Positions 1 to 51,593 of a stretch of 61,473 nucleotides of DNA are shown here, piece after piece. The stretch lies in the IMG/VR virus record IMGVR_UViG_3300035534_000060, one strand, 5' to 3'. Below the pieces are notes generated by a model that did not search any database, was not told the origin of the DNA, and saw nothing but the letters and a program-made list of their open reading frames with translations. The position numbers and the translations under genes are program-made. This DNA is from a virus. The first letter of the stretch is position 1. Each line of letters opens with the position of its first letter.

Positions 1-294
1 GCCAATGAAAAAGTATAGTGATGAAGATTTGATCGATATTATGGCACAGGTAGCCATAGAATTGGGAAGAACACCAAGGATGCAGGATATGCTAAATAGG
101 AAAGGTGGGCCATATCCATCACTTTAGCTACTAACAGCACTGGTTAACGTCTGGAAATTTAGAAAAGTTGCCGGACAATGCACTGAATGCGCATTTTTTG
201 ATAGTGCAAAGGGTGTGTGTATATATTACGATGATGGAGAATGTAAAGAAGATTGTGATAATTTCAAAATGTTAAAACGAGGAGGAGAAAATTA
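1..294 (+). repeat. Duplicated terminal mosaic: 1-127 copies 300-426; 128-294 is a slightly diverged copy of 61245-61411
   Basis: Direct comparison by eye; the second part differs at about 5 positions yet keeps an open frame (F->V, I->V, Y->D relative to the 61127..61411 protein). Confidence 0.85.
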
Positions 295-747: not shown

Positions 748-1182
748 ATGGATTTACAAGAAAATGTGTACAGAGCAAGACATATAGTGGCAGATTGTAT
801 CACTGATGCCATCAATATTAGAATGACTGATAAACCATTCACTATTGATTTTGATGAGTTGAAGATGCACATCAATGATAGAGTGCCTGAATATCGTATC
901 TATGTTGCATTGGGCGCACTCGAAAGAATTGGTGTGATAGAATTTGATGAAGAGAATTTACTTATCAGAGTTAATTACAATTTCATCTATGGGTATAGAG
1001 ATAGTGTTAAAAGGCGCTGGTATGATGAATATGAAGGAAAACCGATAATGGAGAAACTTGATGATATAAAATCGGTACAAGATAAAAATGATTTCAATGT
1101 AATGGATGATTTCACCTGCCAACAATACATGTATATTATAGGCAGGCTTGATCAACAATTATTTTCGGCGGGGTATCTATGA
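748..1182 (+). CDS. Hypothetical protein
   Basis: 144-aa ORF with AAGGAGG SD and upstream promoter cassette; no recognisable motif. Confidence 0.5.
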   Translation: MDLQENVYRARHIVADCITDAINIRMTDKPFTIDFDELKMHINDRVPEYRIYVALGALERIGVIEFDEENLLIRVNYNFIYGYRDSVKRRWYDEYEGKPIMEKLDDIKSVQDKNDFNVMDDFTCQQYMYIIGRLDQQLFSAGYL

Positions 1183-1457
1183 AACAGAGAAATTTGGAAT
1201 TTATGAAAATGTGTAATGCCGCAGATGAATTGAAAGATGACCTTGGGGCTGGCCCATGGTCATTTGATGAAATGGAATTGTATGCATCTACAAAAGGATT
1301 TAATAGATGTCATTTAGAGAACCTTTTGTTCAACATGCAAACTCTTTTGGGGCAGACATACCCAGAGATTAATACGGGGCGCAAATTGCTTCTATGTTTT
1401 ATCATGAAAGAGCAGTATGGAAAAACATGGAATGGCCATATGTGGATACAGGAGTAA
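1179..1457 (+). CDS. Hypothetical protein
   Basis: 92-aa ORF overlapping the previous stop by 4 nt (ATGA). Confidence 0.4.
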   Translation: MKQRNLEFMKMCNAADELKDDLGAGPWSFDEMELYASTKGFNRCHLENLLFNMQTLLGQTYPEINTGRKLLLCFIMKEQYGKTWNGHMWIQE

Positions 1458-1462
1458 AAATA

Positions 1463-1618
1463 ATGGCATGGTATGAAGCGAAATATGAATTAACTGCTAC
1501 ATTTGAATCTGAGTCTATGGATGACGCACTCGAATATGCAGATGATATACCCATACCTTTAGATGGTGAATATACTGTACAAGAAATGACATTAGTACAT
1601 GTATTAGAAATGGATTAA
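1463..1618 (+). CDS. Small acidic hypothetical protein
   Basis: ATG at 1463 just after the previous stop; the track ORF 1394..1618 uses an internal overlapping start. Confidence 0.3.
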   Translation: MAWYEAKYELTATFESESMDDALEYADDIPIPLDGEYTVQEMTLVHVLEMD

Positions 1619-1643
1619 TCCAATAAATAAAAGGAGTGATTAT

Positions 1644-1949
1644 ATGATTAATGATTATACATATACTGATAGAGAACTGATCGATGCTATGGTAGAGTTT
1701 AGGAATGAAAATGGGAGATGGCCAAAACTCAGGGATATGAGAGGCCCCGAATGGCCCGGGCGTACAACATATGCTACCAGATTTGCCACTGAGGAAGGTA
1801 AACAGGATGGATTTGGTGTTGCCCTGACATTGGCACAAAGTGTCTATGAAATGGAGCAGCGTATTGCTGAGGCTGAACAGATGCGTAAAGAAAGTAAACT
1901 TCTTTATCGTGCTGTAAAATTTGTAAAGAAGATTTTTGGGGTGGCATAA
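1644..1949 (+). CDS. HNH-associated HTH-like repeat protein (paralog of 295..660)
   Basis: AAGGAG SD; motif ELIDAMVEFRNENGRWPKLRDM...YATRFATEEG parallels 295..660. Confidence 0.5.
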   Translation: MINDYTYTDRELIDAMVEFRNENGRWPKLRDMRGPEWPGRTTYATRFATEEGKQDGFGVALTLAQSVYEMEQRIAEAEQMRKESKLLYRAVKFVKKIFGVA

Positions 1950-2158
1950 TGCTGCCCATTTATTCTTGCGCTATATGCGGCATCCCAGTGAAAAGTGGTA
2001 AAGTAATTGATTACTATAATAAAAATCTTGAATCTGTGAAAGGTACAGCATATGTTCACTATGATTGTATGAGTAGATTTGAAGATTATATGACCGGGAT
2101 GGGTATGATACCAGAAAATATTGCAGATTTTAACTCCATTTATAATAAGGGGGTATGA
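1949..2158 (+). CDS. Small Cys/His-containing protein
   Basis: 69-aa ORF overlapping the previous stop; CAICG...HYDC possible metal-binding pairs. Confidence 0.35.
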   Translation: MLPIYSCAICGIPVKSGKVIDYYNKNLESVKGTAYVHYDCMSRFEDYMTGMGMIPENIADFNSIYNKGV

Positions 2159-2219
2159 TTCAAACATACAACCAAAAAATATAATACACATTAAATAAAT
2201 ATTAGAGAGTGGTGAGAAT

Positions 2220-2786
2220 ATGGGCTATAAACGTACCCGTGATGATTTTATCGCAGAATTGGACATTATACATAACCAAAGAAGGCATGAAGTGCCGCCC
2301 CTTAGATTTGTAGAGGGTAATGAAGGGCTCGATGTAGAAATTCTTAGGAATGATATATGGAATGCATGGCTTGAAAAAATTCCGGTGAGGCAAATTGCTA
2401 ATGCAGCAGAAGTAGAACCATCCACAGTAAATAGGCATCTTAATAAATGTAAGAAGATGTATGATAAATGGGTCACTGAAAATGGGCTTGATCTTCATGG
2501 CGACCCTGCAAATAGGCTTGAGGATGCCATATCAGACATTCAGAAAGAGATGGATGAATTGGAAGAGCAAGCACAGGAATGTAAAGCAGAAGGCGATGTC
2601 CGAGGCTACAAGGAATTAAAAAAACTTAAACATGAATTGCGTAAGGAAATGACCAAGTTTATGGGTGTAGAACCTGAGAAGAAACTTAATGTAGAAGTCA
2701 CTAGTGCCGAGGAAACCAGAAGGAAGATGGCTGAATTATTCCCATCGGATGAAGTAATTGACCCGGAGGAAGAAGATGAGGGCTAA
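2220..2786 (+). CDS. Putative HTH DNA-binding protein with acidic coiled-coil C-terminus
   Basis: VRQIANAAEVEPSTVNRHLNK helix-turn-helix-like segment; charged heptad-like C-terminal half. Confidence 0.45.
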   Translation: MGYKRTRDDFIAELDIIHNQRRHEVPPLRFVEGNEGLDVEILRNDIWNAWLEKIPVRQIANAAEVEPSTVNRHLNKCKKMYDKWVTENGLDLHGDPANRLEDAISDIQKEMDELEEQAQECKAEGDVRGYKELKKLKHELRKEMTKFMGVEPEKKLNVEVTSAEETRRKMAELFPSDEVIDPEEEDEG

Positions 2787-3432: not shown

Positions 3433-3639
3433 GTGTGGGAAGGTGAAGTGGAAATGAGGATGTGGAATATCAATCCAAGGTACATGTGCCGTAAGCATCT
3501 GTTGGGCGAGCATGTTGAAACACATATGCTTGTCGGCAGCCTAAGAAAAGAAAAAAGTGTGCAAGGTATCAATGAAGTGGAGGAATGGTTTGATTCGCTG
3601 GATGAAGATGAGAAGGTAGAAGTTGTTGAATATGCGTAG
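3433..3639 (+). CDS. T4 endonuclease V-like (pyrimidine-dimer DNA glycosylase family) N-terminal region, apparently truncated; ends in TAG
   Basis: MRMWNINPRYMCRKHLLGEHVE matches the MRLWSLHPKYL...LW.E N-terminal pattern of this family as recalled; only about 61 aa; one of two TAG-terminated ORFs. Confidence 0.35.
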   Translation: MWEGEVEMRMWNINPRYMCRKHLLGEHVETHMLVGSLRKEKSVQGINEVEEWFDSLDEDEKVEVVEYA

Positions 3640-3812
3640 AATATGAAACCATTTATAGAAATGATAATAAAGAAACATAAGGAGGAAATTGAATGAAAGG
3701 ACAAAAATTTTATCTGTTAAAGCAGAAGACTCCTTCCGTAAGGGAGGAGATGAATGCGTCAATGGGTGTTTAACACAATGTTTAAATAGTATTAAAACTA
3801 ATATATTTTCTG

Positions 3813-4925
3813 ATGTTAAAGGCTTACAAGTATAGAATGTATCCTGATGAAAAACAAATTGAAATGTTCCATAAACATTTTGGGGCATGTAGATACATCT
3901 ATAATTGGGCGTTGGAAAATAAAATTAAATCTTATGAACAAGAAGGCAAATCGATTTCAAGATTTGAATTAAATGGGAAAATTCGGATGTTGAAAATGGA
4001 GTTCGAATGGTTGAAAGAAATTAATTCTCAATCATTGCAAGGTGCTACTCTTAATCTGGATAATGCTTTTACCAAGTTTTTCCGTGAGAAAAAGGGTTTT
4101 CCTAAATTTAAATCAAAGAAAAATCCGGTACAATCATTTTCTGTTCCACAACATTATGAGGTGGATTTTGATGGTAACAAAGTGAAACTTCCCAAAATTG
4201 GTTGGATTAAGACAAAGTTACATAGACGTTTTGAAGGTAATTTGAAAACTGCAACAATATCAAAAACACCATCTGGTAAATATTTCATTAGTATTCTTGT
4301 AGATGACGAAAAAGATTTGCCTGCCAAACAAAAGTTTAATGAAAACAATACGGTTGGTATTGATGTGGGAATTAAGGATTTTGCCATTACTTCTAATGGT
4401 GAAAAAATAGATAATCCCAAGCATCTTAATAATTCAATAAAACGTTTGAAAGTATTGCAAAAGCGTCTCTCACGAAAACAAAAAGGTTCAAAAAACAGAG
4501 AAAAAGCAAGACAGGAGATAGCAAAACTTCATGAGAAAATCGCAAATCAGAGAAATGATTTCCAGCACAAGTTGACAAGTCGACTCATAAGCGAAAACCA
4601 AGCGATTGCACTGGAAACATTAAACATATCTGGAATGTTGAAAAATCATTGTCTTGCACAATCCATTAATGATGTATCATGGAGTTCTTTTGTAACCAAA
4701 TTGGAATATAAAGCAGAATGGTACGGAAAAACAATTCTCCGTATCGGACAGTTCGAGCCATCTACTAAAATATGCAATATCTGTGGGTATCATAACAAAA
4801 AGATTACACTTGCAGACCGTAAATGGCAATGTCCTGATTGTGGTGAAACTCATGACAGAGATGTCAATGCTGCAATTAACATTAAGAAGTTTGCCTTAAA
4901 TAAACAGAATTTGATAGGTATTTGA
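3813..4925 (+). CDS. tnpB: TnpB (OrfB) RNA-guided endonuclease-like protein
   Basis: N-terminal LKAYKYRMYPDEKQ; RuvC-like GIDVGIKD, ALETLN, HDRDVNAA; zinc finger CNICGYH...CPDCGETH. Confidence 0.85.
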   Translation: MLKAYKYRMYPDEKQIEMFHKHFGACRYIYNWALENKIKSYEQEGKSISRFELNGKIRMLKMEFEWLKEINSQSLQGATLNLDNAFTKFFREKKGFPKFKSKKNPVQSFSVPQHYEVDFDGNKVKLPKIGWIKTKLHRRFEGNLKTATISKTPSGKYFISILVDDEKDLPAKQKFNENNTVGIDVGIKDFAITSNGEKIDNPKHLNNSIKRLKVLQKRLSRKQKGSKNREKARQEIAKLHEKIANQRNDFQHKLTSRLISENQAIALETLNISGMLKNHCLAQSINDVSWSSFVTKLEYKAEWYGKTILRIGQFEPSTKICNICGYHNKKITLADRKWQCPDCGETHDRDVNAAINIKKFALNKQNLIGI

Positions 4926-5045
4926 AGCACCGTAGGAACTACGGGGAGAGCCTGTGGACTTGTTTCCGTTGGGAAAAGGAATGAAGCAGGAAGCACCATG
5001 CGTAAGCGTGGTGTAGTTCACGGGAAGGGTACAGTAGCACATGTG
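4926..5045 (+). ncRNA. Candidate TnpB guide (omega/right-end) RNA scaffold
   Basis: Locally GC-rich, hairpin-prone stretch (e.g. CCGTAGGAACTACGG) directly 3' of tnpB in an AT-rich genome; exact ends unknown. Confidence 0.3.
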
Positions 5046-5293
5046 CAAGATGCTATGTCAAGTTATGTAGTAGATGCATTCATAGATAATCCTGAAAAGG
5101 ATTGTGTAGTGACTGATATATGTAAAAGGCTGCCCATAGGCACAAAAGTTAGCATTACTGTAGAGGTACTGGAATGAATTATGACCCGAATGCTGCCGTT
5201 TGGGGATTAATTGTAGGTGCTGTATATATTGGAGTAAATGTATTTGCAGCAAAATTGGCCGAAAGGAAAAAGAATAAAGATAGGAGTGATTGA

Positions 5294-6931: not shown

Positions 6932-7092
6932 ATAAGGAAGATGTGCGCATATTTGGGTACGCCTGCATCCTTGTGGGTGTGCCCTATGGCTTCCTTGTGT
7001 GGGCTGATGCCATTAATTATAGTTTGATGGGGCCTGCGTATGCCATTGGAATAACTTTGGGCGGCCTGTTGATTGCGCTGTTGGCGAGGTGA
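6928..7092 (+). CDS. Small membrane protein
   Basis: 54-aa hydrophobic ORF overlapping the previous stop (ATGA). Confidence 0.3.
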   Translation: MNKEDVRIFGYACILVGVPYGFLVWADAINYSLMGPAYAIGITLGGLLIALLAR

Positions 7093-7096
7093 CCCA

Positions 7097-7353
7097 TGGG
7101 GGTAATTGGTCTATAATTATATTTTCTATTTTTAAGGGGTCTTCGGATGGGGGTATCTTTTTTATACTGGTCGGCTGATTGCGATTTTATTTTTGGGCTG
7201 ACCGAAAATTTTTTGTAGGATGACAAATTGCATATGTAACCGATTTGTTACGCATTGGCTGATAGCGATTTTGACCAGTGGGGGTAAAATGCCAATGGGG
7301 GTATTTTTGTGGAAAGGGGTATTTTGAATGGGGGTCAAATTTGAGATGGGGTA
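7097..7353 (+). repeat. Array of about 7 TGGGGGTA-type motifs plus two GGCTGAT(T/A)GCGATTTT repeats
   Basis: Motif copies at about 7097, 7148, 7279, 7296, 7315, 7329, 7347; direct repeats at 7173-7188 and 7257-7272. Confidence 0.7.
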
Positions 7354-7684
7354 TAATGTGGATAAATTTGCCGTTTTTTGGCCTTCAGATTATATCCAGA
7401 TAAGCCTGAGAACGAACAGAGATAGCCATGACAAGCATTTTGACCCTCTACACGACCTATGACCCTCGTAGAGAATTTAAACGCCACACAGACGCTCTCA
7501 CAGCCCCAAAATAGGCCATTCTATCGCCCGCTATCGAAAGCAATATCACAAATATTATTGATGCCCACTGATTTTCGCTATCGGTAGGCACATTTCCTCG
7601 GCCTAATGCCACAAAATTCACTCAATTTTATAACAATTCATACGATCACAATTAAATTCGGACATAAAAATAAAAACTTAATTT

Positions 7685-7813
7685 AAAAATCGTGACAATT
7701 TTGGGCAAAACAATTACTATCAAATAAATTTTTAAAAATCGTGACAAACATTTTAAAAATCGTGATAAAGTTTAAAAATCGTGATTAAAAATCGTGATTA
7801 AAAATCGTGACAA
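7685..7813 (+). repeat. Iteron array: 6 copies of AAAAATCGTGA(C/T)(A/T), last three tandem with 14-bp period
   Basis: Copies at about 7685, 7734, 7755, 7774, 7787, 7800 in an ORF-free region. Confidence 0.8.
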
Positions 7814-7841
7814 AGGTTGGGCCCTTTTAGACTGTAACGGC

Positions 7842-8100
7842 GTTAACATTCGAAAAAATTTTTGAATGTACACATCTGTACATTGATGTACATATCTGTA
7901 CATTGGTGTACACATATGTACAATAGAAGGTTTTTTAGATTGTTAGCCCCGTTAACATTGGCCGATTCTTTTAACTGTAACACTGTTAACAATTTATAGA
8001 GTTAACGGCGTAACGGCCAAATTTAATTTAGGTTGTTCATACTGTTAACTTTATAAATTATTAACGGCGTTAACATCATAAAAAAGCCCCGATTGTTAAC
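7842..8100 (+). repeat. Cluster of 7 GTTAAC palindromes, several within TTAACGGCGTTAAC
   Basis: GTTAAC at 7842, 7951, 7985, 8001, 8044, 8069, 8095. Confidence 0.7.
7867..7922 (+). repeat. Six tandem 10-bp repeats, each beginning with palindromic TGTACA
   Basis: TGTACA at 7867, 7877, 7887, 7897, 7907, 7917 (one helical turn spacing). Confidence 0.8.
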
Positions 8101-8313
8101 GGCATGAACTGTTATAGCGTGTGCCGGCTCTCTCACCTGTCCGGCCTATAGGGCGCCCCGGATACCCTGTGTCTAATTTACTACATGCTTTAAACCTATA
8201 TAAAGGTTTTTATTTATTACAAATAGAAACCTATATATACCATTAGCCCCTATAGAATGTTGCCCTTAGGGGCGGGATGTATGAATGGATGCAATTGAAG
8301 AATTGTATGGTAT

Positions 8314-8390
8314 AAATAGAAACCTATATATACCATTAGCACCTATAGTAGATTGTGGCCAGGGGCGGCCCTAATAAGCCTCAATAATAA
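8314..8390 (+). promoter_or_regulatory. Promoter-leader cassette (AAATAGAAACCTATATATA ... GTGGCCAGGGGCGGCCCTAATAAGCCTCAATAA) for 8407..8595
   Basis: Near-identical 75-bp copy at 8972-9050; partial copy at 8221-8275. Confidence 0.55.
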
Positions 8391-8406
8391 ACAGGAGTTG
8401 TAAGAA

Positions 8407-8595
8407 ATGAGCACAGTATTTTCCGAAGAGAACGGTTACACAAACGGATACTGTCCGGCTTGTGGGTACAATCCGGTAGAACCAGAATTCCCAATCTTCC
8501 AATTATTTGGAGATGGGGAGTATATAAGGGGGCATCAAATATGCCCTAATTGTAGGGAACTGCACCCAATTAATGAAAATATGGACGCAATCTAA
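8407..8595 (+). CDS. Small zinc-ribbon protein
   Basis: CPACG...CPNC pairs; driven by repeated promoter-leader cassette. Confidence 0.45.
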   Translation: MSTVFSEENGYTNGYCPACGYNPVEPEFPIFQLFGDGEYIRGHQICPNCRELHPINENMDAI

Positions 8596-14337: not shown

Positions 14338-15000
14338 ATGCATGTTATACCTAAAGAAAATTATACACTCGATGCCACGGCAGGCACAATAACTTTGTCG
14401 TCTCCATATGATGACCTTGATTTAGAACAGTTTATCACTGTTGTTGATTTGGATACAAACGATGTTATTTATGATGTACACCTTAAACGTGATGGTGTAA
14501 CATTTGCAAACGGCGTACTCACATACACGGCAGATAACAACATAACCAATGATGATGATGATATACGAATAGTAATAAATGATACATCAGGAACTACGCA
14601 GGCAATTGGTGGGTATAGCACTACACTGGATGCACTTAAAATAGTGGAACAAGCGCCAGTAGACCAGCAAGGACTTGATGAGAAAGTTTTGAATGCTGTA
14701 ACAGCAGCAGGTGCAAGCACTGCTGTGAATGTATTAGATAAATCACGTATCATATTCATAGTAGATGCTACCAATGTGACCACTGGGTTTGATATATCAA
14801 TCGAAGGTAGTCCAAATGGTGACGATTGGGGAGAAGTTGGTATTGAAGATAAACAGGGTGTAGAAGCAGGTAGTATCAACATAAATTCAAATGGTATATA
14901 TCTATATAGAGTAGTTGATGCACCTAAATACATACGTGCAAATATAACCAGTTATACTGATGGAACAGCATCAGCATGGATTCAGGGTGGGGCTATCTAA
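14338..15000 (+). CDS. Hypothetical virion-associated protein
   Basis: 220-aa ORF, Thr/Asp-rich, first plus-strand gene after the island. Confidence 0.4.
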   Translation: MHVIPKENYTLDATAGTITLSSPYDDLDLEQFITVVDLDTNDVIYDVHLKRDGVTFANGVLTYTADNNITNDDDDIRIVINDTSGTTQAIGGYSTTLDALKIVEQAPVDQQGLDEKVLNAVTAAGASTAVNVLDKSRIIFIVDATNVTTGFDISIEGSPNGDDWGEVGIEDKQGVEAGSININSNGIYLYRVVDAPKYIRANITSYTDGTASAWIQGGAI

Positions 15001-15380
15001 TGACATTAGACATAATTAAACCAAAACCAGTCGAAGAACAGAACGATTTGAGTAACGTAGATCTACCAGCAATTGTTGCAGCCGGAATTAATCAGGGCGA
15101 TATTGTAGATTTACATTCATGCGTAGAATTTGTAAATACGCAGATTGAACCTGATATTTCAGGTGATGATGTTGAAGGTACATTCAAATCAATCGTGAAA
15201 GAAGCCAAGCGTATGAGTTCAGATGCCGATAAACTTGCAAGAGAAGGTAAATCTGTTACTGAAATTGAAGCAGAACTTACCGGTAACAACTTCACGTATT
15301 CCGATATTGAAGCAATGAAAATTGAAGTTTATGGAACTGTAACTGAATGGAAGAATGCAATGACAGCAGATGAGGTATGA
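14976..15380 (+). CDS. Hypothetical protein
   Basis: 134-aa ORF. Confidence 0.4.
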   Translation: MDSGWGYLMTLDIIKPKPVEEQNDLSNVDLPAIVAAGINQGDIVDLHSCVEFVNTQIEPDISGDDVEGTFKSIVKEAKRMSSDADKLAREGKSVTEIEAELTGNNFTYSDIEAMKIEVYGTVTEWKNAMTADEV

Positions 15381-15386
15381 TATTCC

Positions 15387-15815
15387 ATGCCTCGTCTTAC
15401 GCTTCCAAGTGAAAGTTGTTGTTTTAGATTAGATTCAGACTACGGCTATCGGCAGCAGTTTCCGATGACGTTCAATGATGTTGGATTAAGTGATGATGGG
15501 TTTGAGACTGGAAGTGTGACTGCACCATTCTTTGAAGAACCTGTTTTCATGTATATTGAATATGATGATACTTATCTGGCTGAAGAATACCCGGATTCAC
15601 AAAGTATTGTGACATATACAGATGGTGAAATTACTATTGATTGTTCTGTAAATGTTATTAAGTGTGTGGATATTTACAGTAGGATACTTACTGCTCACGA
15701 AATTGCTGATAGAAATAATAATGTGACTTTCCAGTTTTTGAATGATGTGCCTACTCCTACACAGCAGAAATATTTGGATTGGCAGAATAGTAGAGTAATC
15801 GGGAGGTCACGATAA
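15387..15815 (+). CDS. Hypothetical protein
   Basis: 142-aa ORF. Confidence 0.4.
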   Translation: MPRLTLPSESCCFRLDSDYGYRQQFPMTFNDVGLSDDGFETGSVTAPFFEEPVFMYIEYDDTYLAEEYPDSQSIVTYTDGEITIDCSVNVIKCVDIYSRILTAHEIADRNNNVTFQFLNDVPTPTQQKYLDWQNSRVIGRSR

Positions 15816-17518
15816 TGACACGGACACTTGAAGAATTACGAGAATATCTTGTTGGCGAATGGCTCTTCGATAATGACTTCCTTGATACATCTGGAAATGG
15901 CAATCATGGTACTCCTACTGATATAGAATGGAAACCTACTGCAAGAGGACTGAAACCGTATTTTAATGGTAGTAGTTCTTATATTGATTGTCAAAACCAA
16001 TTAACAGAATCAAATAATATCACTGTTTCTGCATGGGTATATCCAAACATAAATGAAGATGGGGATAAAACGATATTGTCTCAATTTTCAGATGATATAT
16101 ACTCGGGTGCATATACACTTCGGTATAGAGCCAAAAAAAACGGTTATCACTTTTCAGTATGGACTGATGATATATATGTAGATGCTCCAATAGCATCTGG
16201 ATTTTTAAACGGTCAATGGATTCATTTTGTCGGTACTTATGATGGCTCATATATAAAATTATATCAAAATGGTGAATTAGTTGCATCTGATACACTTACT
16301 GGAAACATAAATTATGATGATGATGATGGTGATAGATTCGTGATTGGTGCTAGGGAATATAATTTCCCAGGTACTACTTGGGATGGTAACATTGGCGAAA
16401 TTGGTGTATATTCAACCGCACTCACCGATGATGAAGTCCTTGCACTCTACGAAAGCACCAAACATGCATATGGGGTTGTTCCAGCAGAACGTTCGTTTAC
16501 CCACCGATTACAACCGGAAGTCGATGCAAATACTGTCGCTGCTTTCGATATGAGTACCAAGAACAGCGATGGTACACTCATGGATTTGTCAGGAAATAGT
16601 AATCATGGTGATATACAGGGGGCTGTCAGAGCGGGTGGATATTTCACCGATGGGATGATGTCAGGTTATGGTAATCATAATATAATACAATTCAATCATA
16701 ATAATGATATTGATTTCAGTAAAGAATTATATTTAGAACTCATTATAACTATACCTGATTGGACAAAGGTTGGTAGTTACACACCTGTAATACAAAAGAC
16801 AAATGAACCAAATAATCTAAAAAATGGGTTTAATTTGCGTAAAAATTCTGATAATAATAAATTAACATTTTCGATTGGCAATAGTACAAACACTTCATAT
16901 GAACAAACCAATGTGTTATCTGAAAATAGAAAATATTTAATACAATGTTATTATGAATCAGGTGTTGGTGGAGAAATTTGGTGTGATGGGGAATATTTAA
17001 ATTCACTATCATCTATTGGAGATATTGATCTTAATACAGAACCTATAAACATTTTTAATCGTTCTGATAGGTTGAGCGATGGTCAATATATAATTCAATA
17101 TGCTAAAATAATGAATGTAGTACCAACTGATTCACAAATAAAATCCAGATTCAACTCACTTGCTAACTTACCGCTCTACACCTTCGATGCTTCCAAGTAT
17201 CCCACAAGTAGCGGTTGGACTGCAAATGTACCATACAGCAGCATGTCGATAAGTTCCGGTGAATTCTCATTCACTGATGATGGACAATTACAATGTGATA
17301 GTGCAGGTTCATTTTCACTTCGGAATTCCCATCCCTTCGATGCTGATGAATACATCAAATTGACAATCAATGGTGTCGAATATGCAGGTACAGGTAGTGT
17401 AACTGAAGGTACTGTCACTGTATCCCTGACACAAGGCAGCAATAAGATTAGTGTCAATATGGGTACTGGTGATGTAATAGACGGTATCGATATACAGTTC
17501 AGAGAACCTGTTGAGTAA
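15815..17518 (+). CDS. LamG/concanavalin-A-like lectin domain protein (putative receptor-binding protein)
   Basis: Two LamG-like units: SGNGNHGT...ITVSAWVYP...WIHFVGTYDG...KLYQNGELV...GEIGVYSTALTDDEV and a second GNSNHGD unit. Confidence 0.55.
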   Translation: MTRTLEELREYLVGEWLFDNDFLDTSGNGNHGTPTDIEWKPTARGLKPYFNGSSSYIDCQNQLTESNNITVSAWVYPNINEDGDKTILSQFSDDIYSGAYTLRYRAKKNGYHFSVWTDDIYVDAPIASGFLNGQWIHFVGTYDGSYIKLYQNGELVASDTLTGNINYDDDDGDRFVIGAREYNFPGTTWDGNIGEIGVYSTALTDDEVLALYESTKHAYGVVPAERSFTHRLQPEVDANTVAAFDMSTKNSDGTLMDLSGNSNHGDIQGAVRAGGYFTDGMMSGYGNHNIIQFNHNNDIDFSKELYLELIITIPDWTKVGSYTPVIQKTNEPNNLKNGFNLRKNSDNNKLTFSIGNSTNTSYEQTNVLSENRKYLIQCYYESGVGGEIWCDGEYLNSLSSIGDIDLNTEPINIFNRSDRLSDGQYIIQYAKIMNVVPTDSQIKSRFNSLANLPLYTFDASKYPTSSGWTANVPYSSMSISSGEFSFTDDGQLQCDSAGSFSLRNSHPFDADEYIKLTINGVEYAGTGSVTEGTVTVSLTQGSNKISVNMGTGDVIDGIDIQFREPVE

Positions 17519-17789: not shown

Positions 17790-19292
17790 ATGAATTTAGA
17801 TCAGATAAATGAATATATGGAGGAGCAAGATTATGACAAACGCCAAAGAAATTATGTCAACTTGCTCTGTAATACTTTTAACATGAAAAATGCTAAAGGT
17901 GAATTATTTCCTTATAGGCCTGAAAAATATCAAATAAATTATCACGCTCATTGTATGCTTGCCATGAAAGACTATCCTCACCGTATTTGGCGTAAAGCAA
18001 GGGGTGTCGGGGCAACTGCTACTACAATGATGGATGCTTTGATGGTTTCACACAGATTCAGAAAACAAACAATACCAGTAGCATCTATAACAGGCGAACA
18101 GGCATCTGTACCAATAGATTGGTCAATTGAATTGGCTGATAATACACAAATAGACGGCTTTTTTAATAGGCGGCAAGATGTGACTACTCGATGTGTATTA
18201 GATAATGGAAGTACAATTTTTGTAGTTCCGGGGCAAAAACCTGACTCTTTACGTAGTTACCGTTCTGTATTTGTTGTATATGATGAATTTGCTTTCCATG
18301 AATATCCACGCAAAATAAAGATTGCTGGTGATAGATGTGTTTCTGAAGGCGGCCAATTAAATATTCTTTCAACTGTTAATGGTACAGAAAACGAGTTTTG
18401 GAGACTTCTTGAAAATGCTGAAGATTTTGGTTATAAGGAATTTTCAGTACCTATGTTTGATCCAGAAAAGTTTGATATAAAGAAGCCTATACCGTATCAA
18501 ATTGAGCAAGGTTGGATTAAACCTATCGCCCCATGGATGAATATAGATATGCTTGAACGGGATAGAAAGAGTGACCCGATAGCGTTTATGCAAGAAACCC
18601 AATGTAATCCAGAAGACGGCGCTACATCATTCATGCCTACTGCACTTCTTTACAGAGCATCTAGAGAGCCATATATGATAGAGCAGGATGCCAGAGAAGG
18701 ATTCGGCATATATGTATGTGGTATTGACTTTGCTACTGAAAAAGATATGTCTGCATTTGAAATTTTTGAAAAAGTGCCACAAGGTTGGATACATCGCAAA
18801 AGAGTTGCTGTACAAAAGCATGATACGCCTCAGCAAGTTCAACTATTAAAAAGTTTGCATAGAGCATTTAATTTCAAATATGTGACTATAGATATGACAG
18901 GCCCGGGTACAGGATTTTACCATTATGCTAAAGAGCAGCTGCAAACTGAAGTGATTGGAATAAATTTCTCTACAAGGCACATCATTGAACCAGATAATCA
19001 ATATTTATATAGAAAAGCAGATAAAAATGTTAGAAAGGATGGAAAAATTTCCATACCAATTAAAAGAGCAATGGCTACTCATATGAAGAAAGAGGCTGAT
19101 GAAGGTCGATTGCTATTTCTTAATTATCCAGAATATATTAAAGATTTGCATTCAGTACCATATGATTCGCTTGATGCAAAGCGCAATAAAAATCATCATG
19201 GTGATGAGTTCTGGGGCAGCGCATTGGCATTATGGGGATACCAGATGCATGAGAATAGAATATCCATACCGCCAGTTTCATTGAGGTATTAA
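17790..19292 (+). CDS. Terminase large subunit (putative)
   Basis: 500 aa directly upstream of portal-sized gene; RGVGATAT P-loop-like, VFVVYDEFAF Walker-B-like, acidic C-terminal nuclease-like half. Confidence 0.6.
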   Translation: MNLDQINEYMEEQDYDKRQRNYVNLLCNTFNMKNAKGELFPYRPEKYQINYHAHCMLAMKDYPHRIWRKARGVGATATTMMDALMVSHRFRKQTIPVASITGEQASVPIDWSIELADNTQIDGFFNRRQDVTTRCVLDNGSTIFVVPGQKPDSLRSYRSVFVVYDEFAFHEYPRKIKIAGDRCVSEGGQLNILSTVNGTENEFWRLLENAEDFGYKEFSVPMFDPEKFDIKKPIPYQIEQGWIKPIAPWMNIDMLERDRKSDPIAFMQETQCNPEDGATSFMPTALLYRASREPYMIEQDAREGFGIYVCGIDFATEKDMSAFEIFEKVPQGWIHRKRVAVQKHDTPQQVQLLKSLHRAFNFKYVTIDMTGPGTGFYHYAKEQLQTEVIGINFSTRHIIEPDNQYLYRKADKNVRKDGKISIPIKRAMATHMKKEADEGRLLFLNYPEYIKDLHSVPYDSLDAKRNKNHHGDEFWGSALALWGYQMHENRISIPPVSLRY

Positions 19293-50696: not shown

Positions 50697-51593
50697 ATGG
50701 AAAATTGGACAAAAGAATATGCGCCTAAAACTTTGGAAGAATATGTACAGGATGATGAAATAAAAGAAACTATCCAGAAGTACATCGATAACGATATGCG
50801 TACACCAATGATTTTTGAAGGCCCAGCAGGCACAGGCAAAACTACACTTGCCCGTATAATTGGTAATGAAATGAATGCCAATGTCTATGAACTAAATGCA
50901 TCTACTGATAATGGTGTTGATGTGGTACGTGAAAAAATTGTCACATGGGCAAGAAGTAAGCCATTTAGCGATAAAAGAACTGATGGACTTAACTTAATTT
51001 TTTGTGATGAATCTGAAAGATTTACTCCACAGGCACAAGATGCTCTCAAGCGCACAATTGATGATTATGGCAAACACACAATTTTTATTTTCTGCACAAA
51101 TAATATTCATAAGATTATTAAGCCTATTCAAAGTCGTGCTGGAAAATATTGTTTACATATTGGATATGTAGATGAATTTAGTATCAAGGATTTGATTGTG
51201 CAAACCGCAGAAAAAGCACAAATAACTATCGGAATGAGCGATATTGACAAGATAGTGGATAAGGCGGATGGTGAACCAAGGGCAGCAGTCAATATGCTAC
51301 AGTCGTATGCTATTGGAGATTTCAATGAGAGTGGTAGTAAACGTGATGACTTTAGATCATTCATGATGATGGCGCTACATGATGAAAAACCATTGGATGC
51401 AATTACCCGTGTCAGTGAAAATGATTTGCAGGAATTTGGGAGATATATAATTTCAACAGAGAAGCAACCCATTGAATTACGCAAGGAACTGTTAAAAATT
51501 ATTGCTGATACCGATAAAGCGATTCAAAACAGTGTAAATAAAGATATACATTTGCTTGATATGTATATCAAAATTGTGGAGGCGCTCAAATGA
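50697..51593 (+). CDS. Replication factor C small-subunit-like clamp loader
   Basis: FEGPAGTGKTT, ELNASTDNGVDVVREK, LIFCDESERFT, KIIKPIQSRA, GEPRAAVNMLQ parallel archaeal RFC motifs. Confidence 0.8.
   Translation: MENWTKEYAPKTLEEYVQDDEIKETIQKYIDNDMRTPMIFEGPAGTGKTTLARIIGNEMNANVYELNASTDNGVDVVREKIVTWARSKPFSDKRTDGLNLIFCDESERFTPQAQDALKRTIDDYGKHTIFIFCTNNIHKIIKPIQSRAGKYCLHIGYVDEFSIKDLIVQTAEKAQITIGMSDIDKIVDKADGEPRAAVNMLQSYAIGDFNESGSKRDDFRSFMMMALHDEKPLDAITRVSENDLQEFGRYIISTEKQPIELRKELLKIIADTDKAIQNSVNKDIHLLDMYIKIVEALK

What the first reader, a model, noticed from the sequence alone, without database searches (positions are those of the whole stretch)
7685..7813. Six AAAAATCGTGA iterons, three in exact 14-bp tandem
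The motif TTAAAAATCGTGA(C/T)(A/T) recurs six times, the last three as a perfect 14-bp tandem. Iterons of this kind are classical initiator-binding sites.
Basis: partly seen in the sequence, partly recalled or inferred. Interest (0 to 1): 0.55.

Follow-up and report, generated by a model that had tools for sequence, protein, structure and literature searches.

The report
Conserved six-copy iteron array, viral control region
Six exact copies of a 13-base motif sit in the only large non-coding stretch of a complete 61-kb genome of an uncultivated virus (probably of a methanogen-like archaeon); they are almost certainly a docking array for one DNA-binding protein, most plausibly part of the replication origin, but that role and the protein remain unproven.

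Summary
The repeat is real. AAAAATCGTGA (13-nt core TTAAAAATCGTGA) occurs six times, all on the + strand, at 7685-7810; 0.06 exact copies are expected by chance. The last three form a perfect tandem of period 13, not 14.

The window is a complete, circularly assembled virus genome of about 61.4 kb. The array lies in its largest non-coding gap (7093-8406). Every local cluster of repeated 9-mers in the genome falls in that gap.

Two diverged relatives keep six copies each (one has five exact and one a base short). In one of them the surrounding ~570 bp no longer aligns, although its flanks are 93-98% identical. The core is therefore under selection, while the array gains and loses whole units.

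The motif is absent from promoters, unlike two dispersed motifs in the same genome. It behaves as a single-locus cis element, not an operator.

An origin role fits the AT-rich setting, the neighbouring palindromes in this lineage and the virus's own replisome. However, no initiator gene lies nearby, no Rep or Orc1 was recognised, spacing is irregular (13-49 bp), and skew is uninformative.

Verdict: a genuine protein-binding iteron array, origin function about 40% likely. It is a new member of a known kind and of moderate interest.

The parts
7683..7812 (+). Iteron array: six direct copies of TTAAAAATCGTGA at 7683-7695, 7732-7744, 7753-7765, 7772-7784, 7785-7797 and 7798-7810. The last three form an exact 13-bp tandem.
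   Evidence: Identical array in independent assemblies. Six copies kept in the relatives L012 and L080.
7093..8406 (.). Non-coding control region ('hub'): the largest intergenic gap of the genome (1314 bp). It contains every local cluster of repeated 9-mers in the genome.
7096..7355 (+). Eight GGGGT(A/C) boxes, all in one orientation, several reading ATGGGGGTA. They form the left part of the hub.
   Evidence: Largely conserved in L012 and partly replaced in L080.
7366..7680 (.). Unique, relatively GC-rich segment between the G-boxes and the iterons. It is nearly identical in relatives up to 7543. Only the minus strand folds better than shuffled sequence as RNA.
7866..7922 (.). Six TGTACA palindromes at an exact 10-bp period, at the centre of a ~130-bp imperfect palindrome (7831-7959). 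Present in the window and L080, absent in L012.
7826..8110 (.). T(T)AACGGC / GTTAAC motif family in both orientations, forming two long imperfect palindromes. The core TTA(A)CGGC is retained in L012.
8192..8340 (+). Three tandem copies of the dispersed promoter-like element (A)GAAACCTATATA(TA), at 8192, 8227 and 8320. They lie upstream of the small genes that start at 8407.
   Evidence: The TATA pattern TWTATATA is described as methanogen-type in PMC2699501.
39677..42439 (-). Candidate binder, by inference only: a 920-aa PrimPol (AEP) protein with a DinG/XPD-like body. Its C-terminal tail of about 55 residues is helix-helix-helix-hairpin, which resembles a winged helix.
   Evidence: No test links it to the iterons.

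Best explanation
The six direct copies of TTAAAAATCGTGA are a cis-acting docking array for one sequence-specific DNA-binding protein, with one protomer per 13-bp core. The array sits in the single large non-coding control region of a complete ~61.4-kb head-tailed virus genome. The promoter pattern and the best homologues suggest a methanogen-like archaeal host.

Most likely the array is the initiator-binding part of the viral replication origin. Protein would load side by side on the A-tract-rich, ~78% AT, 130-bp array. This would distort or open the adjacent AT-rich DNA next to the long palindromes. It would then give entry to the virus's own replisome: PrimPol-helicase, XPD-like helicase, RPA-like SSB, family B polymerase and RFC-like loader.

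Shown: the repeats exist, far exceed chance, are confined to one non-coding locus, keep their core under selection while the array gains and loses whole units, and are not promoter or operator elements.

Inferred: that a protein binds them, that the function is replication initiation, and that the binder could be the winged-helix-like C-terminus of the 920-aa PrimPol, by analogy with phage P4 alpha and pRN1 ORF904.
For: - Statistics and uniqueness of the motif.
- Single-locus element: the array lies in the largest intergenic gap, and all repeated-9-mer clusters of the genome fall in this gap.
- Selection on the core: L012 and L080 each keep six copies (L080 has five exact plus one a base short), with different spacings.
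- In L012 the segment 7544-8116 gives no blastn alignment, while the flanks are 93-98% identical.
- The alignment shows the array changing by whole 13/14/19/21-bp units.
- Setting: the stretch is AT-rich, at the 96-97th percentile of low duplex stability.
- It is directly followed by two long palindromes; the single-strand DNA fold has z = -6.9.
- The genome encodes a self-sufficient replisome but no recognisable initiator, so an unrecognised origin-binding function must exist.
- The PrimPol ends in a helix-helix-helix-hairpin module.
- The motif is absent from the two dispersed regulatory motifs' sites.
Against: - No initiator-type gene lies next to the array. The nearest replication genes are 27-32 kb away around the circle.
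- No Rep, Orc1/Cdc6 or MCM family hit was found in any tested ORF.
- Spacing (13, 13, 19, 21, 49) is not helically phased, and the core is shorter than classical 17-22-bp iterons.
- The array is not the most AT-rich or least stable place in the genome.
- GC skew and four-fold-site skews show no origin signature.
- The flanking palindromes are weak in L012 (z = -2.1), and the TGTACA array is missing there.
- In more distant family members, no such array lies within +/-10 kb of the primase. That is not the homologous position, so the test is weak.
Confidence: 0.4

Rival explanations
1. Transcriptional control array. The iterons would be operator sites for a viral or host regulator. That regulator would control either the three tandem promoters at 8192-8330 from a distance or a leftward non-coding RNA starting beside iteron 1 (about 7680 to 7380).
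For: - The hub ends in three tandem promoter-like elements that drive small, highly variable genes.
- The minus strand of 7380-7680 folds better than shuffles (z = -3.2), whereas the plus strand does not (z = -0.6).
- Read on the minus strand, each iteron contains TTTTTAA, which is A/T-rich like a TATA element.
Against: - The motif occurs at one locus only, whereas the genome's real regulatory motifs are dispersed at several intergenic sites.
- The nearest promoter-type element is about 380 bp from the last iteron.
- The iteron does not fit the TWTATATA pattern used elsewhere in the genome.
- Copies 13 bp apart cannot all act as promoters.
- No Rfam family matches the region.
- No conserved regulator gene lies adjacent. 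The genes downstream of the hub differ between the window and L012.
Confidence: 0.2
2. Packaging or genome-end element. The array would be a recognition site for the terminase small subunit, or part of a concatemer junction. The layout would resemble the left end of T7: short repeat arrays, then tandem early promoters, then small early genes.
For: - Layout: a long co-directional operon ends at 7092. Repeat arrays follow, then three tandem promoters, then tiny variable genes.
- A-tracts in every unit would favour DNA wrapping.
- An unrelated virus from the same sample series (L216) has a comparable 1.25-kb repeat-rich gap directly upstream of a TerS-like gene.
- A 188-aa protein with an HTH, a coiled-coil-like stretch and an acidic tail (2220-2786) has a TerS-like build.
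Against: - The array is 10 kb from TerL, with a leftward operon in between.
- Several independent assemblies read straight through the hub, and none of the contigs examined starts or ends in the iteron array.
- The window's 58-nt end overlap lies inside a gene, far from the hub.
- No TerS family was recognised for any window protein.
Confidence: 0.15
3. Centromere-like partition site. Closely packed short direct repeats would be coated by an adaptor protein, as in parC/ParR or tubC/TubR, to maintain the virus as an episome.
For: Contiguous 13-14-bp direct repeats in one orientation resemble parC and tubC arrays more than the 22-bp phased replication iterons (the comparison itself is from general knowledge).
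Against: - No ParA, ParM or TubZ-type NTPase and no RHH or TubR-like adaptor was detected in the complete genome.
- The 428-aa candidate turned out to be an RPA-like OB-fold protein.
- No integrase or other lysogeny or plasmid-maintenance gene was seen.
Confidence: 0.07
4. No function: a slippage-generated minisatellite in AT-rich spacer DNA.
For: The number and spacing of units change between close relatives, as expected for slippage or unequal exchange.
Against: - The core stays exact in 17 of 18 copies across three lineages, although the surrounding ~570 bp has diverged beyond blastn recognition in L012.
- The copy number stays at six.
- Non-tandem copies 49-109 bp away carry the same core.
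Confidence: 0.06

Closest known systems
Phage P4 ori/crr type I iterons bound by the alpha protein (primase-helicase with a C-terminal winged-helix origin-binding domain). The pRN1 ORF904 prim-pol/helicase of Sulfolobus is a second example. (From general knowledge.)
   Same: Short repeats in several copies are bound by the DNA-binding end of a large multidomain primase. The origin need not abut the gene. The virus here has a 920-aa PrimPol with a helicase-like body and a winged-helix-like C-terminal module.
   Different: P4 alpha is a Toprim primase with an SF3 helicase. Here the protein is an AEP PrimPol with a DinG/XPD-like region. No binding has been shown, the sequences are unrelated, and the P4 octamers occur in both orientations.
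Archaeal mini-ORB arrays (13-bp Orc1/Cdc6 sites in oriC of Methanothermobacter and Pyrococcus; PMC1904270)
   Same: A 13-bp unit occurs as clustered multiple copies with irregular spacing. A single site binds weakly, while clusters bind cooperatively. The host domain is probably the same.
   Different: The mini-ORB core motifs TTCC and GAA (PMC1904270) are absent from TTAAAAATCGTGA. No orc1/cdc6 gene lies adjacent or anywhere in the virus. All copies are direct rather than inverted around an unwinding element.
Classical plasmid and phage replication iterons (RepA/pi/RepE plasmids, P1 oriR, lambda ori; general knowledge)
   Same: Direct repeats in one orientation, with an exact core and an AT-rich neighbourhood.
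   Different: Those iterons are 17-22 bp at spacings of about 22 bp. They lie within or beside the initiator gene. Neither holds here.
parC (R1, pSK41) and tubC centromere arrays (general knowledge)
   Same: Head-to-tail repeats of 10-14 bp are coated by an adaptor protein.
   Different: No adaptor or NTPase genes were found, and the array is not upstream of an operon that it could autoregulate.
Left end of phage T7: short repeat arrays followed by the tandem early promoters A1-A3 (general knowledge)
   Same: About 1 kb of non-coding DNA carries repeat arrays, followed by three tandem promoters and small early genes.
   Different: There is no evidence that a genome end lies here, and there is no T7-like RNA polymerase or terminal repeat.

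Membership tests
Replication-origin iterons (plasmid/phage type) | Three or more direct repeats, same orientation, conserved core | tested here: met
   Six exact copies, all on the + strand. Conserved in relatives.
Replication-origin iterons (plasmid/phage type) | Regular, helically phased spacing (about 21-23 bp) of 17-22-bp units | tested here: not met
   The core is 13 bp. Spacings are 49, 21, 19, 13, 13 in the window and 109, 21, 14, 13, 21 in L012.
Replication-origin iterons (plasmid/phage type) | Cognate initiator gene adjacent to or overlapping the iterons | tested here: not met
   The flanking ORFs are small and carry no Rep-like domain. The replication genes lie at 39-58 kb.
Replication-origin iterons (plasmid/phage type) | Adjacent AT-rich unwinding element | tested here: inconclusive
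   The array region is at the 96-97th percentile of low stability, but it is not the genome minimum.
Replication-origin iterons (plasmid/phage type) | Initiator binding and origin activity | not testable with these tools
   Needs EMSA or footprinting, and marker-frequency or replication assays.
Archaeal ORB / mini-ORB (Orc1/Cdc6 sites) | Core motifs TTCC ... GAA within a 13-bp mini-ORB (PMC1904270) | tested here: not met
   TTAAAAATCGTGA contains neither motif (one search compared).
Archaeal ORB / mini-ORB (Orc1/Cdc6 sites) | orc1/cdc6 gene next to the repeats | tested here: not met
   The only AAA+-type match among the tested ORFs is the RFC-like clamp loader (50697-51593); there was no Orc1/Cdc6 family hit.
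Archaeal ORB / mini-ORB (Orc1/Cdc6 sites) | Repeats in inverted orientation flanking the unwinding element | tested here: not met
   All six copies are direct.
Partition centromere (parC / tubC type) | Contiguous short direct repeats | tested here: inconclusive
   Three to four units are contiguous at 13-14 bp. The others are 19-109 bp apart.
Partition centromere (parC / tubC type) | Adjacent adaptor and NTPase genes | tested here: not met
   No ParA, ParM, TubZ, ParR or TubR was detected. The 428-aa protein is an OB-fold SSB.
Terminase recognition site (pac / cosB) | Location in or beside the terminase genes, or at mapped genome ends | tested here: not met
   TerL is at 17790-19292, 10 kb away. 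Assemblies read through the hub. Physical ends could not be mapped.
Dispersed transcription-factor operator | Sites at several promoters, overlapping or abutting BRE/TATA | tested here: not met
   All copies lie in one 128-bp stretch. The nearest promoter-type element is about 380 bp away. Compare the truly dispersed 15-mer.

The most novel reading that the evidence does not exclude
The 1.3-kb hub is a compound origin and control region of a previously undescribed family of archaeal head-tailed viruses. At least four different sequence-specific factors would read it: G-boxes, iterons, TGTACA decamers and TAACGGC palindromes.

The 13-bp iterons would be recognised by the winged-helix-like C-terminus of the viral PrimPol-DinG/XPD-like protein. 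That would give a P4-alpha-like 'primase as initiator' mechanism built from an AEP primase and an SF2 helicase. No such origin has been defined in an archaeal tailed virus.
Probability: 0.12. Interest if true: 0.6.

Novelty: new member of a known kind. Interest (0 to 1): 0.35.

Why it matters
To my knowledge, replication origins and their initiators have not been mapped for archaeal head-tailed viruses. This genome offers a compact, well-delimited candidate: one 1.3-kb non-coding region and one exact 13-mer in six copies, already seen in several natural variants.

That makes the question directly testable by DNA-affinity capture or EMSA, and by read-depth profiling of existing metagenomes. If the array is the origin, it would identify how a virus with its own PrimPol, helicases, RPA-like SSB and PolB chooses its start site. 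If it is not, the array is still a clean handle on an unknown sequence-specific DNA-binding protein.

Tried and rejected
- **Known RNA families.** Rfam found nothing at gathering thresholds. Below threshold there were only microRNA-precursor models and one U12 snRNA hit on the palindromes.
- **tRNA or att-like features.** None were found.
- **Bacterial promoter and terminator scan of the hub.** Counts were no higher than in shuffles.
- **Origin from composition.** GC skew follows gene orientation only. Skews at four-fold sites are noisy and show no switch at the hub.
- **Motif-pair scans of viral, metagenome and genome collections**.
  - Apart from the window's own lineage (L002/L011, L003/L012, L080), the hits are unrelated arrays.
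  - These include Nostoc 20-bp repeats, Cloacimonadota TTTGAAAAAATCGTGATATCG arrays and a 10-bp satellite in a Nanoarchaeota contig (L171).
  - They also include a GC-rich phage with 13-bp TCGTGAATG repeats (L454).
  - They share no proteins with the window except a Dam methylase.
  - A 20-residue match between the L454 wHTH protein and the PrimPol lies at residues 286-305, not in the C-terminal module. I rejected it as spurious.
- **Scans for the TGTACA decamer array and for TAACGGCGTTAACA.** Among the loci these scans brought in, no new relatives were found.
- **Reaching the hub of distant relatives through neighbouring proteins.**
  - Single-protein queries found only the same two contigs.
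  - The LamG gene proved to be part of a mobile four-gene cassette, so its contexts are not syntenic.
  - Primase contexts (+/-10 kb) contain no arrays but do not reach the homologous position.
- **The 428-aa first gene of the replication operon as initiator or TubZ-like protein.** Rejected: it is an RPA/Ten1-like OB-fold protein with an acidic tail.
- **Small minus-strand ORFs in 7335-7621.** No support beyond DNA conservation.
- **L216's repeat-rich gap.** It shares the short motifs TGATAGCGA, TGTACA-like and GGGGTnnTATAA with the hub. However, it belongs to a different virus (TerL 24% identical), so homology of the regions is unproven.

Full report
**Observation**

The motif AAAAATCGTGA occurs exactly six times in the 61,473-base window. 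The copies start at 7685, 7734, 7755, 7774, 7787 and 7800. All are on the + strand, and there are none elsewhere.

Allowing one mismatch gives 12 matches against 2.77 +/- 1.8 expected, and no shuffle reaches 12. A first-order Markov model predicts 0.058 exact copies. The motif ties for the most repeated 11-mer of the genome with a promoter-like element.

The shared core is 13 nt, TTAAAAATCGTGA. Tandem Repeats Finder reports 7772-7810 as period 13, 3.0 copies, 100% identity. The spacings are 49, 21, 19, 13 and 13.

The array and its surroundings (1,156 bases) are 100% identical in two further assemblies, L388 and L389. L011 carries the six copies at identical spacing. The array is therefore not an assembly artefact.

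**What the window is**

The first 58 bases equal the last 58. The window is therefore a circularly assembled, complete genome of about 61,415 bp.

It encodes the following recognisable functions:
- a large terminase;
- a family B polymerase-like protein;
- an RFC-like clamp loader;
- ribonucleotide reductase;
- a Dam-type methylase;
- an XPD/DinG-like helicase;
- a RecU-type resolvase;
- an IS605-type TnpB;
- a 920-aa AEP primase-polymerase.

**Which host**

Several lines point to an archaeal, methanogen-like host:
- The terminase's best matches among 50,697 phage records are archaeal tailed viruses: Methanofastidiosa viruses at 27% identity (E = 1e-49), then haloviruses.
- The polymerase's only match in the same collection is also an archaeal tailed virus, Halorubrum tailed virus 25.
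- The first large gene of the replication operon models as an RPA/Ten1-like OB-fold protein with an acidic tail.
- A dispersed intergenic element sits 50-95 bp upstream of start codons at about eight sites. It reads (A)GAAACC-TATATATA or AACC-TTTATATA.
- That element fits the TWTATATA TATA-box pattern, which PMC2699501 describes as confined to methanogens.

There is contrary evidence. Some domains are typical of bacterial phages (RecU, YopX, BppU_N in relatives). One relative's protein is labelled Omnitrophota in a binned assembly. I treat an archaeal host as probable, not settled.

**Where the array sits**

The iterons lie in the largest intergenic gap of the genome, 7093-8406 (1314 bp). The next largest gap is 532 bp. 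Every place in the genome where an identical 9-mer recurs three or more times within 300 bp lies inside this gap.

From left to right the region contains:
- eight GGGGT(A/C) boxes in one orientation (7096-7355);
- a unique, more GC-rich segment (about 7366-7680);
- the six iterons in ~78% AT DNA (7683-7812);
- six TGTACA palindromes at an exact 10-bp period (7866-7922), embedded in a ~130-bp imperfect palindrome;
- a family of T(T)AACGGC/GTTAAC motifs forming a second ~105-bp palindrome;
- three tandem promoter-like elements (8192, 8227, 8320) ahead of small genes.

As single-stranded DNA, 7815-8115 folds far better than shuffles (z = -6.9). The iteron stretch is at the 96-97th percentile for low duplex stability, but it is not the genome's minimum.

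**Conservation**

Two further lineages carry the array: L012/L003 (a 60,475-nt IMG/VR contig) and L080 (a 4.3-kb metagenome contig).
- L012 has six exact copies with spacings 109, 21, 14, 13 and 21.
- L080 has five exact copies plus one with a four-A run. By my reading, its spacings are 49, 21, 14, 21 and 19.

The window and L012 are 93-98% identical on both sides. Between 7544 and 8116, however, blastn finds no alignment at all. There the TGTACA array is absent and the palindromes are weak (z = -2.1).

The multiple alignment shows the array differing by whole units of 13, 14, 19 or 21 bp, while the core is invariant. This pattern, an exact core at a constant copy number of six in a segment that otherwise turns over, is the strongest evidence that the 13-mer is a selected recognition site.

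**What it is not**

The genome has real dispersed regulatory motifs: the promoter-like element above, and a 15-mer, TTCTGTGTACTTTAA.

The 15-mer occurs seven times (up to one mismatch), only in intergenic gaps. At two of the three sites it forms an inverted pair. One of those sites is the divergent gap beside the helicase gene. An inverted pair of a similar motif lies in the corresponding divergent gap of family member L219.

The iteron occurs at none of these places. The nearest promoter-type element is about 380 bp away. The iteron therefore does not behave as an operator of a dispersed regulon.

No Rfam family matches. No tRNA, integrase, partition NTPase or recognisable small terminase was found.

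**Mechanism**

The most economical reading is a single-locus docking array for one DNA-binding protein, and among single-locus functions an origin fits best. The virus brings a full replisome but no recognisable initiator. The array is AT-rich with an A5 tract per unit. In this lineage long palindromes adjoin it.

The 920-aa PrimPol has three parts in its model (mean pLDDT 79): a CAPP-like AEP domain, a body with weak DinG/XPD similarity, and a C-terminal helix-helix-helix-hairpin module. By analogy with P4 alpha and pRN1 ORF904 (general knowledge), it could read the iterons. That link is inference only.

Several points weigh against an origin:
- No initiator gene is adjacent.
- The spacing is unphased.
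- The core is shorter than that of classical iterons.
- Skews are uninformative.
- The TTCC/GAA signature of archaeal mini-ORBs is absent.

I put the origin reading at about 0.4. The alternatives are:
- transcriptional control, including a possible leftward structured RNA (minus-strand fold z = -3.2 against -0.6 for the plus strand): about 0.2;
- a packaging or genome-end element of T7-left-end style: about 0.15;
- a centromere-like site: about 0.07;
- a functionless minisatellite: about 0.06.

**Limits**

The family defined by the PrimPol (24 proteins, 37-99% identity) includes complete-size contigs. Only +/-10 kb around anchor genes could be read, however, and the hub lies 27-32 kb from the primase.

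**Verdict**

This is a genuine, conserved iteron array in the one control region of a novel, probably archaeal, tailed virus. It is a new member of a known kind. The origin assignment is plausible but unproven, and the 14-bp period should be corrected to 13.

Noticed in passing
window 5694, 5862, 6000(-), 21343(-), 21367, 44199(-), 44223; L219 19150-19245: A 15-bp motif, TTCTGTGTACTTTAA (up to 1 mismatch), occurs seven times, only in intergenic gaps. At two of the three sites it forms an inverted pair, and no shuffle reaches seven. An inverted pair of a similar motif lies in the corresponding divergent gap beside the helicase gene of a family member with 63% primase identity. It looks like the operator of a dispersed viral regulon, or a second promoter class.
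   Followed up: partly
window 691, 8192, 8227, 8320, 8975, 10693, 13383, 44708, 45091, 55523, 60069-60092: A dispersed promoter-like element, (A)GAAACC-TATATATA / AACC-TTTATATA, lies mostly 50-95 bp upstream of start codons. Its TATA part fits the methanogen-type TWTATATA box (PMC2699501). This hints at a methanogen-like archaeal host.
   Followed up: partly
window 1-58 and 61416-61473: The first 58 bases repeat exactly at the end, so the window is a circularly assembled complete genome of about 61,415 bp. A 62,043-nt contig of the same virus (L388) is 628 nt longer and starts near window ~38.2 kb. Its ends could not be read, so a long terminal repeat there is neither shown nor excluded.
   Followed up: partly
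window 3433-5177: An IS605-type TnpB gene (3813-4925) sits just after a 68-aa fragment of a pyrimidine-dimer glycosylase (DenV-like; 3433-3639 matches only the first 55 of 81 profile positions). The insertion is absent from this site in the close relative (L003/L213). It looks like a recent TnpB insertion that may have split the gene.
   Followed up: partly
window 7380-7680, minus strand: The minus-strand RNA folds better than shuffles (-90.2 kcal/mol, z = -3.2), while the plus strand does not (z = -0.6). The segment up to 7543 is nearly identical in relatives. It may be a leftward non-coding RNA starting beside iteron 1.
   Followed up: partly
window 7096-7355; L080 (minus strand) 760-880: Eight GGGGT(A/C) boxes lie in one orientation, several reading ATGGGGGTA. 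Some are preceded by CCAGT (gaCCAGTnGGGGTA). This is a faint resemblance to the CCAGTGG...GGGGG layout of the Pyrococcus ORB (PMC1904270). It was not tested.
   Followed up: no
window 7866-7922: Six TGTACA palindromes lie at an exact 10-bp period. They are present in two lineages but missing in the otherwise 93-98% identical relative L012, so they are dispensable or replaceable.
   Followed up: partly
[not shown]
   Followed up: yes
window 14338-17518; L215-L220: A four-gene cassette ending in a 567-aa LamG-domain protein recurs at different genome positions in several virus lineages. One gene is 91% identical in a virus whose terminase is only 24% identical. It looks like a mobile adhesin or receptor-binding module.
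   Followed up: partly
L080 ~945-2389 (minus strand), equivalent to window 7089-7315: In one relative, extra DNA that includes an HNH-type endonuclease ORF lies inside the left part of the hub. It separates the first G-boxes from the rest.
   Followed up: no
L216 4200-5427: A different virus from the same sample series has a 1.25-kb repeat-rich non-coding gap directly upstream of a TerS-like gene. It shares short motifs with the hub: TGATAGCGA x3-4, TGTACA-like runs and GGGGTnnTATAAAAA. It also has GTTCGTA...TACGAAC palindromes. Shared host factors or convergent control regions are possible.
   Followed up: partly
L454 6860-7400 (unrelated GC-rich phage contig); L001/L005/L006/L008 (Cloacimonadota-type elements): Other mobile elements carry arrays built on the same TCGTGA core. 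One has roughly a dozen 13-bp TCGTGAATG repeats, next to about ten longer (23-30 bp) repeats and a small ORF. Others have 22-23-bp TTTGAAAAAATCGTGATATCG repeats. They share no proteins with this virus beyond a Dam methylase.
   Followed up: partly
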